A stretch of DNA of 64,000 nt from Eledone cirrhosa (taxonomy: Eukaryota), in contig OZ024756.1 in the NCBI GenBank assembly GCA_964016885.1, positions 6,882,001-6,946,000 of the forward strand. The letters run 5' to 3'. The position numbers and the translations under genes are program-made. Positions within the stretch are counted from its first letter, which is position 1; each line of letters starts with the position of its first letter. Positions 37,870 through 38,792 of this stretch are shown piece by piece. The notes beneath the pieces were generated by a model. It was not told where the DNA came from. It saw only the letters and a program-made list of their open reading frames with translations, and ran no database searches.

Positions 37870-37876
<7 letters not shown>

Positions 37877-38792
37877 AGTATGTATTCGTACATACATATA
37901 TATATACAGACGTACAGTAGTATGTATATATATATACATGCACACATATATATATGTACGTATAGATTCACCGAACATTTATTATAATGCTCGGTGTGTT
38001 TGTAAACAAACATCCCGAATTAAGCCGTACAGTGTCTAGTAACCATCGTTGCTCATTTGTTCAACACTGACAAAGGAACGCTGTACTAGTTTCAAGCTTA
38101 TTTGCTATCGTCAGCAACGTATAACTTCCTGCCAGATGTTTGAACGACTGAAAATATATACTTTCCTCATGCATATTAATGGCTGAGCAGCCTAATTTGC
38201 ATATAGAGTGAGTTAACCGGCCGGGGTACCGAAAACGATAAACGGAAAAAATGAAACGAAATTTCACTTCTCACTCTTAGTACGGCTGTTACTTAAATAT
38301 AAGTATGTCTACGTACATACATATATGTATACAGACGTACAGTAGTATGTATATATATATACATACATGCATATATTAACTCATTAACTCAGTCGATATG
38401 CAAATTAGGCTGCTCAGCCTTTAATATGCATAAGGAAAGTATATACTTTCAGACGTTCAACCATCTGGCAGGAAGGTATACGTTGCTGACGATAGTTAAT
38501 AAGCTTGAAACTAGTACAGCGCTCCTTTGTTAGTGTTGAACGAACGAGCAACGATGGTTGCTAGACACTGTACGGCTTAATTCGGGATGTTTGTTTACAA
38601 ACACACCGATCATTATTATAAATGTTCGGTGAATCCATATGTACATATATATATATGTGTGCATGTATGTATATATATATTCATACTACTGTACGTCTGT
38701 ATACATATATGTATGTACGTATACATACTTATATTTAAGTAACAGCCGTACTAAGAGTGAGAAATGAAATTTCGTTTCATTTTTTCCGTTTA
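37870..38792. mobile_element. Family D element: ~425-nt tandem unit and inverted, differently permuted second arm; hammerheads at 38079-38119 (minus) and 38481-38521 (plus)
   Basis: taagtatgt..cgtacatac at 37875 and 38300; cgttg-CTGACGA...GAAAC ta GTA-cagcg on both arms. Confidence 0.82.

What the first reader, a model, noticed from the sequence alone, without database searches (positions are those of the whole stretch)
37870..38792. Family D occurs as circularly permuted ~425-440 nt units
Seen: the unit restarts after 425 nt (37875/38300) and after 438 nt (12947/13385). The inverted arm 38375-38792 begins and ends at different points of the same unit, reading across the unit junction. The unit has one hammerhead, internal AT/CATA microsatellites and no ORF. 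Inference: the copies were reverse-transcribed from a circular or multimeric RNA, i.e. a non-autonomous retrozyme.
Basis: partly seen in the sequence, partly recalled or inferred. Interest (0 to 1): 0.8.

Follow-up and report, generated by a model that had tools for sequence, protein, structure and literature searches.

The report
Hammerhead retrozyme moved by Penelope elements
A 425-base non-coding repeat carrying a self-cutting hammerhead RNA motif has been pasted tens of thousands of times into AT microsatellites in the pattern of Penelope-type retrotransposons; it is a new member of a known class, but its insertions follow a near-strict rule that hints at how these elements copy themselves.

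Summary
The repeat is real: an ORF-less 425-nt unit with one minimal type I hammerhead, roughly 38,000 dispersed copies (CI 12,000-90,000) plus one tandem array of at least 91 kb. 'Circularly permuted' is half right. Inner (5') ends are scattered and arms read through up to five cleavage sites, but outer (3') ends are fixed at two sites 56 nt apart (134 of 156 arms), mostly against (AT)n. This is the Penelope-like (PLE) 'tail'. Head-to-head insertions use one site per arm in 43 of 44 classifiable cases, and 8 of 8 head-to-head pairs of ORF-bearing PLE families in this genome do the same. No copy carries a PLE ORF as its own body. So it is a non-autonomous, PLE-mobilised non-LTR retrozyme. Best mechanism (inferred): a PLE protein dimer cuts both strands of (AT)n and primes one cDNA at each start site. 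A circular template is favoured over an uncleaved multimer (about 60:40) but not shown; no RNA data were available, and the partner PLE is unidentified. The scan has noted retrozymes before in other genomes. New member of a known kind; interest 0.45.

The parts
37790..37872 (.). (AT)n target microsatellite, left flank
   Evidence: sequence
37873..38376 (-). Arm A, 1.2 units in hammerhead sense (unit position 133 round to 215); its 3' end is the tail-less start site A, against (AT)n
38068..38134 (-). Minimal type I hammerhead of arm A with extended stem I; core 38114-38084, predicted cut after 38084 (GUA)
38238..38304 (-). Both start sites and the tail, read through internally in arm A (where the unit restarts)
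38376..38383 (+). Head-to-head junction with an 8-nt tandem duplication of the first bases of arm B
38384..38793 (+). Arm B, 0.95 unit (unit position 292 round to 271); its 3' end is start site B, with tail, against (AT)n
38466..38532 (+). Minimal type I hammerhead of arm B; core 38486-38516, predicted cut after 38516 (GUA)
38737..38793 (+). 56-nt 'tail' between start sites A and B; predicted hairpin
38792..38812 (.). (AT)n target microsatellite, right flank
12744..13434 (.). Second insertion: short minus arm 12744-12862 (B-type end cut short at 255, inside another repeat) and plus arm 12855-13434 (1.32 units, end A); hammerhead core 13177-13207
42010..42505 (.). Third insertion, diverged subfamily: minus arm 42010-42236 (end B) and plus arm 42237-42505 (end A); hammerhead core 42258-42288 with GUU triplet

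Best explanation
Family D is a non-autonomous retroelement (non-LTR retrozyme) mobilised in trans by an endonuclease-bearing Penelope-like element. Shown from sequence: the unit, the hammerhead motif, the lack of an ORF, (AT)n targets, two fixed 3' ends 56 nt apart, scattered 5' ends, read-through of cleavage sites, and one start site per arm in head-to-head insertions. Inferred: the PLE RT/GIY-YIG protein binds the RNA near the tail hairpin and cuts both strands of an (AT)n tract. It primes one cDNA from each broken end, one at site A (215) and one at site B (271), probably as an asymmetric dimer and at least sometimes on two RNA molecules. The two cDNAs stop at random points and are joined head-to-head by microhomology or short filler. 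The template has no fixed 5' end; a hammerhead-cut, re-ligated circle fits best (about 60%), an uncleaved multimer or template jumping less well. Some multimers and the large array grew later by local duplication.
For: Fixed 3' ends in 134 of 156 arms. One A plus one B end in 37 of 37 classifiable head-to-head pairs and in 6 of 7 pairs from two other subfamilies; 43 of 44, p=2.6e-12 against a 50:50 null. The same short+long pattern in 8 of 8 head-to-head pairs of five RT+GIY-YIG families of this genome. 86 of 134 classed ends abut at least 8 nt of alternating AT. In vitro, a PLE protein cuts and extends both strands of AT-rich DNA, starts RT at two internal sites that bound the tail, and is modelled as a dimer (PMC11167929). 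Head-to-head inversion with a tail at one end is the PLE hallmark (PMC3846280, PMC8557442 passages). 138 of 185 arms cross a cleavage site, with no 5' pile-up at it. Successive units in an arm differ by 3.5%, the two arms by 3.8%, unrelated insertions by 4.8%; rare variants are shared 16%, 16% and 0.8%. Arms overlap widely on the circle (both longer than one unit in 5 of 37 pairs). Arms disagree at five subfamily sites more often (16 of 106) than successive units do (12 of 187; Fisher p=0.02), with L118 and L171 pairing different subfamilies; this hints at two templates. Hammerhead core intact in 127 of 146 dispersed instances; 96% of cells paired, with one stem I pair changed on both sides in 13 sequences.
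Against: No partner PLE shares sequence with the unit among the families sampled; only 150 of 10,595 GIY-YIG candidates were scored and 46 fetched. One pair breaks the rule (L210, A+A). 14 of 51 head-to-head clusters had an unclassed end, and 51 clusters are single-armed, many with non-AT 5' flanks. No Rfam hammerhead model matches even at E<=10, the motif alone folds no better than shuffles, and covariation rests on one pair in related subfamilies. In the PLE studied in vitro, cleavage was not needed and unprocessed RNA was the main substrate. Shared rare variants can also come from later duplication or conversion: alternating or nested patterns occur in L118, L121, L171 and L195. Most loci were top hits of searches, not a random sample.
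Confidence: 0.8

Rival explanations
1. Same PLE-dependent element, but the template is linear: an uncleaved multimeric transcript of tandem copies, or monomers joined by RT template jumps. The minimal hammerhead rarely cuts or matters.
For: Dispersed copies of 2-5 units exist and could be sources. Chimeric arms switch subfamily internally (L138, L026). Hammerhead mutants did not affect insertion by the anole PLE in vitro. Only 1 of 9 predicted Xenopus retrozyme dimers cleaved in vitro.
Against: No fixed 5' end is visible among 104 paired 5' ends. The large array is not the source of the copies tested: its 19 internal polymorphisms (each in at least 15% of 105 monomers) were seen 1 time in 330 site observations in dispersed copies of its own subfamily (8 of those loci were chosen for likeness to L080, while L055, L080, L088 and L138 were not). 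The core is intact in 127 of 146 copies and stem I shows compensation.
Confidence: 0.35
2. The copies are solo or partial terminal repeats (pLTR fragments) of an autonomous PLE, left by 5' truncation, and not an independent non-autonomous unit.
For: All end features are those of PLE pLTRs. One copy (L131) is joined head-to-head to an ORF fragment of a PLE family.
Against: Arms return to the start of the same 425-nt unit for up to 5.1 turns instead of running into an ORF. Of 84 family-D loci, 2 have a PLE-ORF match; only L131 is at a junction, and it is in the opposite orientation with no sequence shared with the unit. The unit has no protein similarity to the sampled PLE ORFs (best E 0.025).
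Confidence: 0.08
3. The one-tail-per-insertion rule does not reflect twin priming. It arises from self-priming or fold-back on one template followed by endonuclease resolution, or from later loss of symmetric palindromes.
For: Self-priming on an antisense template (PMC3846280) and EN-mediated resolution of an intermediate (PMC8557442) are the published proposals. Junctions often overlap by a few bases.
Against: The two arms begin at unrelated points of the circle rather than forming a centred palindrome, and they sometimes belong to different subfamilies. Both ends match RT start sites shown in vitro for another PLE, by analogy. A/A and A/B pairs differ by only 56 nt of symmetry, so strong differential loss is unlikely (inference).
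Confidence: 0.3
4. A satellite DNA spread by DNA-level mechanisms (excised circles, rolling-circle DNA amplification) without reverse transcription.
For: A tandem array of at least 91 kb with higher-order repeats exists.
Against: Strand-polarised fixed 3' ends, random 5' truncation, (AT)n targets and the tail rule shared with RT-encoding PLEs. The array carries variants absent from dispersed copies, so it looks derived.
Confidence: 0.03

Closest known systems
Metazoan non-LTR retrozymes (Cervera & de la Pena 2020, PMC7229834, parts 2-4 of 6 read; Li, Clavereau & Pollet 2026 preprint 10.64898/2026.07.22.740005, parts 1-3 of 5 read)
   Same: Non-coding unit of a few hundred nt, GC below 50% (37%), one type I hammerhead per unit, monomers to long arrays, strong predicted fold, co-occurrence with PLEs. 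Weak stem III with a palindromic loop and a U-U at the base of stem II resemble the two axolotl motifs described there.
   Different: The parts read do not describe head-to-head inverted insertions, fixed RT start sites or (AT)n targeting for retrozymes; their link to PLEs rests on shared ribozyme type, co-occurrence and pLTR similarity. Here the link is the insertion footprint. RNA circles and cleavage were shown there for some families and are untested here. Supplements were not seen.
EN+ Penelope-like elements, e.g. Poseidon of Anolis (Frangieh et al. 2024, PMC11167929, parts 1-2 of 4 and passages read), rotifer Penelope (PMC3846280, passages), overview in Craig et al. 2021 (PMC8557442, passages)
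   Same: 5' truncation, partial tandems, head-to-head inverted copy, tail present at one end, two RT start sites downstream of a minimal hammerhead, AT-rich or (TA)n targets.
   Different: No RT/EN ORF. The tail is 56 nt rather than 30-40. Start sites sit at TTAT motifs that match the (AT)n target, whereas the anole element starts at a site not homologous to the target. In vitro no difference in start site was seen between the two strands; pairing within single events is not reported in the parts read.
Non-autonomous Chlamys elements such as MRC1 (Craig et al. 2021, passage)
   Same: Non-autonomous PLE derivatives that form pLTRs and multicopy head-to-tail insertions.
   Different: Green-algal, N-terminal-EN clade said to lack canonical hammerheads; those elements resemble autonomous partners at their 3' ends, while no partner was found here.
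L1 twin priming (recalled, from no call)
   Same: Both target strands prime reverse transcription and give an inverted 5' part.
   Different: In L1 the second primer anneals at variable internal sites and the arms do not overlap; here both start sites are fixed and the arms overlap widely.

Membership tests
Non-LTR retrozyme | Short non-coding unit (about 150-450 nt) with no ORF, LTR, PBS or PPT | tested here: met
   425 nt, longest stop-to-stop 69 aa; no LTR structure in mapped copies. PBS and PPT were not searched separately.
Non-LTR retrozyme | Type I hammerhead motif in each unit | tested here: met
   Core motif and stems I/II present; intact core in 127 of 146 dispersed and 86 of 105 array monomers. 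Minimal form; no Rfam model match.
Non-LTR retrozyme | Tandem copies with at least two consecutive hammerheads | tested here: met
   33 of 185 arms cross two or more cleavage sites; array of at least 91 kb.
Non-LTR retrozyme | Self-cleavage of the transcript | not testable with these tools
   Needs in vitro transcription of monomer and dimer.
Non-LTR retrozyme | Expressed as circular RNA | not testable with these tools
   No RNA holder listed; only contigs could be laid.
Non-LTR retrozyme | Stable self-paired fold of the monomer | tested here: met
   z = -6.1, 0 of 100 shuffles as stable; part of this comes from the AT-repeat hairpin.
Autonomous EN+ PLE | ORF with RT and GIY-YIG | tested here: not met
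   No ORF in the unit and none in sense continuity at 84 loci.
PLE-mobilised element | Two fixed 3' ends bounding a tail, with variable 5' truncation | tested here: met
   134 of 156 3' ends at two sites; 7 of 156 5' ends there.
PLE-mobilised element | Head-to-head inverted copy with the tail at one end | tested here: met
   43 of 44 classifiable pairs.
PLE-mobilised element | Sequence homology to the pLTR of an autonomous partner | tested here: inconclusive
   None among 46 GIY-YIG loci from six families; most of the 10,595 candidates were not seen.
Plant LTR retrozyme | Type III hammerhead in paired LTRs | tested here: not met
   Topology is type I (stem I open); no LTRs.

The most novel reading that the evidence does not exclude
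PLE insertion is an obligate asymmetric twin-priming reaction: one protein dimer cuts both strands and each subunit starts at a different one of the two RT start sites, sometimes on two RNA molecules. Family D is a 425-nt ribozyme-made RNA circle that keeps only the cis-signals for this reaction. That would explain the tail, the head-to-head inversion and the partial tandems in one mechanism, and give direct footprint evidence that animal retrozyme circles are PLE substrates.
Probability: 0.35. Interest if true: 0.7.

Novelty: new member of a known kind. Interest (0 to 1): 0.45.

Why it matters
The element class is known, so the finding as first stated is not new. Its value is mechanistic. How PLEs make their inverted and tandem structures is described as open in the papers read, and PLE mobilisation of retrozymes is a hypothesis resting on co-occurrence and pLTR similarity. 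A high-copy 425-nt unit gives many short, fully readable insertion events. They show a near-strict one-start-site-per-arm rule that also holds for ORF-bearing PLEs in the same genome. That turns the qualitative remark 'tail often at one end' into a testable prediction for the existing in vitro PLE system. The family also shows a retroelement seeding a satellite array of about 100 kb.

Tried and rejected
Rfam: 0 matches at gathering score in the window; at E<=10 over 37870-38800, 79 matches, nearly all AT-repeat noise such as miRNA models, and no hammerhead model. RNA: no RNA holder listed; four runs of unknown kind from one study, kept as contigs, were laid. They show presence only, their depth is no copy number, and they were not used as evidence on expression or circularity. 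Partner search: GIY-YIG loci gave six PLE families, none with the unit as terminal repeat. Family-D copies in L055 and L072 are separate insertions; L072 sits in the (AT)n at the end of a PLE. L131 (family-D arm joined head-to-head to a PLE ORF fragment, both ends long) was considered as evidence for a partner and set aside: it is 1 of 52 free 5' flanks, 17 of which begin in some repeat. The C28 array as master source was rejected for the copies tested. Two alignment-free end classifiers were tried as a cross-check and are unreliable. One search gave AB 54, BB 11, AA 1 of 112 clusters (internal B motifs miscalled). One search gave AB 58, AA 8, BB 0 of 112 (the palindromic AT hairpin miscalled as A; by eye only L210 is a true AA, and some AB calls are also false). 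The alignment-based counts are the ones reported. Arm A was longer than arm B in 29 of 37 pairs; not used, because queries selected for long arms. The excess of 5' ends at unit 112-150 coincides with the internal AT tract and may be an alignment or microhomology effect. Variant sharing could not separate circle from multimer. Literature searches that did not turn up the paired-start-site rule: (open-access library only; supplements, including Fig. S2 of PMC11167929, were not seen and may bear on this). Earlier scan notes: nothing relevant by sequence, by place, or with the long word list.

Full report
Setting. The window lies in a 3.0-Gb, 1,796-contig eukaryotic assembly rich in AT microsatellites (G000:C17:6882001-6946000). 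The finding covers a head-to-head insertion between two (AT)n tracts.

Observation. The restarts at 37875/38300 (425 nt) and 12947/13385 (438 nt) are exact. The window holds three insertions of the family: 12744-13434, 37873-38793 and 42010-42505. Each unit has one type I hammerhead motif: CUGAnGA, a 4-bp stem II on a U-U (or C-A) mismatch, then GAAAC-UA-GUA with a palindromic, nearly absent stem III, and an extended bulged stem I. On 46 distinct sequences, 96.3% of cells pair, against 35-51% for slid controls. One stem I pair is changed on both sides in 13 sequences (U-G, G-C, G-U, A-U, C-G); no other pair is, and the sequences are related, so this support is modest. No Rfam hammerhead model matches, and the motif alone folds no better than shuffles. 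In the circular fold of the family consensus, stems I and II form. The whole unit folds with z = -6.1. There is no ORF longer than 69 codons.

Sample. I mapped copies on a circularised unit, position 1 being the first base after the GUA. One search examined 180 sequences: L002-L195 without 10 duplicates and 8 array loci, plus 3 window segments. Arms had to be at least 79% identical and hold at least 30 nt outside dinucleotide runs; 91 sequences held 156 arms. Most loci are top hits of three DNA searches and so favour long copies close to the query. L135 and L137 later proved to share flanks (both single-armed). Sixteen more loci from two other subfamilies were added as a check. In 40 evenly chosen 10-kb stretches, 5 held dispersed copies and 1 lay wholly in a tandem array. 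Five in 390 kb gives about 38,000 copies, 95% interval 12,000-90,000.

Ends. 3' ends lie at 204-219 in 70 arms (site A) and at 255-272 in 64 (site B), with 22 elsewhere; 59 are exactly 215 and 50 exactly 271. Both sites are TTAT motifs, and 86 of the 134 classed ends are followed at once by at least 8 nt of alternating AT. 5' ends are scattered: 7 of 156 fall in those windows, and 5 of 156 lie within 10 nt of the cleavage site (7.3 expected). Of 185 arms, 47 cross no cleavage site, 105 one, 26 two, 5 three, 1 four and 1 five. So permutation concerns only the 5' ends, and the template is not a cleaved linear monomer.

The rule. Of 51 head-to-head clusters, 37 had both outer ends classed, and all 37 were one A plus one B; 14 had one unclassed end. 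Together that is 43 of 44 (p = 2.6e-12 against 50:50). Several apparently single arms show, by eye, a short second arm of the opposite type (L142, L145, L157, L197). Two motif-based cross-checks were too noisy to use. [quoted passage not shown] Five carry a CxxxxCxxC motif before the GIY-YIG, which PMC8557442 (passage) assigns to Neptune/Nematis. In five families, all 8 head-to-head pairs found have one short and one long end; one further locus, L031, is in the opposite orientation and was left out. Family D therefore leaves the same footprint as ORF-bearing PLEs.

Comparison with the literature. A tail at one end of an inverted PLE insertion is described qualitatively (PMC3846280 and PMC8557442, passages). 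Frangieh et al. (PMC11167929, parts 1-2 of 4 and passages) showed that a PLE protein cuts and extends both strands of AT-rich DNA and starts RT at two internal sites that bound the tail. They model it as a dimer and found that hammerhead cleavage was not needed in vitro. Cervera and de la Pena (PMC7229834, parts 2-4 of 6) define non-LTR retrozymes, show circles in coral, mussel and axolotl, and propose PLEs as the mobiliser. Li et al. (preprint, parts 1-3 of 5) add co-occurrence and pLTR phylogeny. PMC7761336 (passages) notes that minimal PLE hammerheads may cleave as dimers. Searches found no statement of paired use of the two start sites; the library is open-access only and supplements were not seen.

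Mechanism (inferred). The protein binds the RNA at the tail hairpin, cuts both strands of (AT)n and extends each 3' end into a cDNA, one from site A and one from site B. Both cDNAs stop at random and are joined; junctions range from 43 nt of overlap to 34 nt of gap, mostly within 10 nt. Arms overlap on the circle (both longer than one unit in 5 of 37 pairs), which needs strand displacement or two RNAs. At five non-CpG subfamily sites, successive units disagree in 12 of 187 comparisons, the two arms in 16 of 106 (p = 0.02), and unrelated insertions in about 32% (my sum). L118 and L171 pair arms of different subfamilies. This hints at two templates in some events. Published alternatives (self-priming, endonuclease resolution) are not excluded.

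Circle or multimer. For a circle: no 5' terminus is visible; read-through is routine; unit-to-unit divergence (3.5%) is no greater than arm-to-arm (3.8%), against 4.8% between insertions; rare variants are shared 16% within insertions against 0.8% between. Against: few rare variants occur in every pass of an insertion (2 of 222 where three or more passes cover the site), as expected if most arose after insertion. Some multimers show later local duplication (L118, L121, L171, L195), and some arms are chimeric (L138, L026). No RNA could be examined. I put the circle at about 60%.

The array. Probes on C28 are filled with the unit from 109,970,001 to 110,061,500, except the first 2.7 kb of one probe, and empty at 109.95 and 110.10 Mb. 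That makes about 91-149 kb, only partly fetched, with higher-order repeats. It shares 12 fixed marks with a dispersed subfamily, but its 19 internal polymorphisms appear once in 330 site observations in those dispersed copies (8 loci were selected for likeness to L080, 4 were not). It looks like a satellite seeded by one insertion rather than the source.

Partner. None was identified. The unit has no DNA or protein similarity to the sampled PLE families beyond AT-rich noise. Of 84 family-D loci, 2 hold a PLE ORF match; L131 is a head-to-head join to an ORF fragment with both ends long, and chance is not excluded.

Verdict. A real feature and a new member of a known kind: a non-LTR retrozyme mobilised by PLE machinery. 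The one-start-site-per-arm rule is the part a specialist would value, because it makes an open question about PLE inversion testable. Interest 0.45.

Noticed in passing
window 51623-52890: Another hammerhead-bearing family (motifs near 51937 on minus and 52579 on plus) in an inverted arrangement between (AT)n tracts, with arms starting at different points; likely a second non-autonomous PLE-type element.
   Followed up: partly
window 15450-15900: Hammerhead motif with a strong stem II near 15678 (+), in a segment ending in (AT)n; folds better than 196 of 200 shuffles.
   Followed up: partly
window 40665-40885 and 4600-4660: A 97% palindrome with a hammerhead-like motif near 40760 (-), and a further hammerhead-like motif near 4651 (-) close to (AT)n.
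   Followed up: no
window 13620-13900; 6529-6887, 23588-24034, 54126-54490: Other short head-to-head inverted repeat families beside microsatellites, with no hammerhead found by the pattern scan.
   Followed up: no
G000:C28 about 109.97-110.06 Mb (L116, L183-L189): Tandem array of the family-D unit, at least 91 kb, with higher-order repeats and its own 2-nt and 8-nt deletions; 86 of 105 monomers keep the hammerhead core.
   Followed up: yes
L131:1449-3290: Hybrid head-to-head insertion: a family-D arm joined, with about 6 nt of overlap, to a 5'-truncated PLE ORF fragment and its 3' end.
   Followed up: partly
L061, L063, L064, L041, L042, L071: At least six PLE families with RT and C-terminal GIY-YIG (open frames up to 938 and 1096 aa). 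Some carry a minimal hammerhead-like motif with a palindromic stem III, read by eye, and five show short and long ends.
   Followed up: partly
L071:4414-5041: A repeat about 70% like unit positions 117-260, with a similar tail hairpin, ending in (AT)n; possibly a related older family.
   Followed up: no
window 56681-59605 (-): 790-aa plus 183-aa frames with endonuclease- and RT-like motifs (L1/Tx1-type LINE by recalled motifs, not scanned); 74% identical to a frame in L065.
   Followed up: no
window 62449-64000; 270-623 and 898-1251; 10172-10692 and 12216-12746: A 62-bp tandem repeat running off the window end, a 98% direct repeat of 354 nt, and two inverted copies of another repeat, one of which abuts the second family-D insertion.
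   Followed up: no
L004, L005, L012 (C1, 74.79-74.83 Mb); L135 and L137: The same family-D insertion recurs at 17-18 kb spacing on C1, and two C1 loci share flanks: segmental duplications.
   Followed up: no
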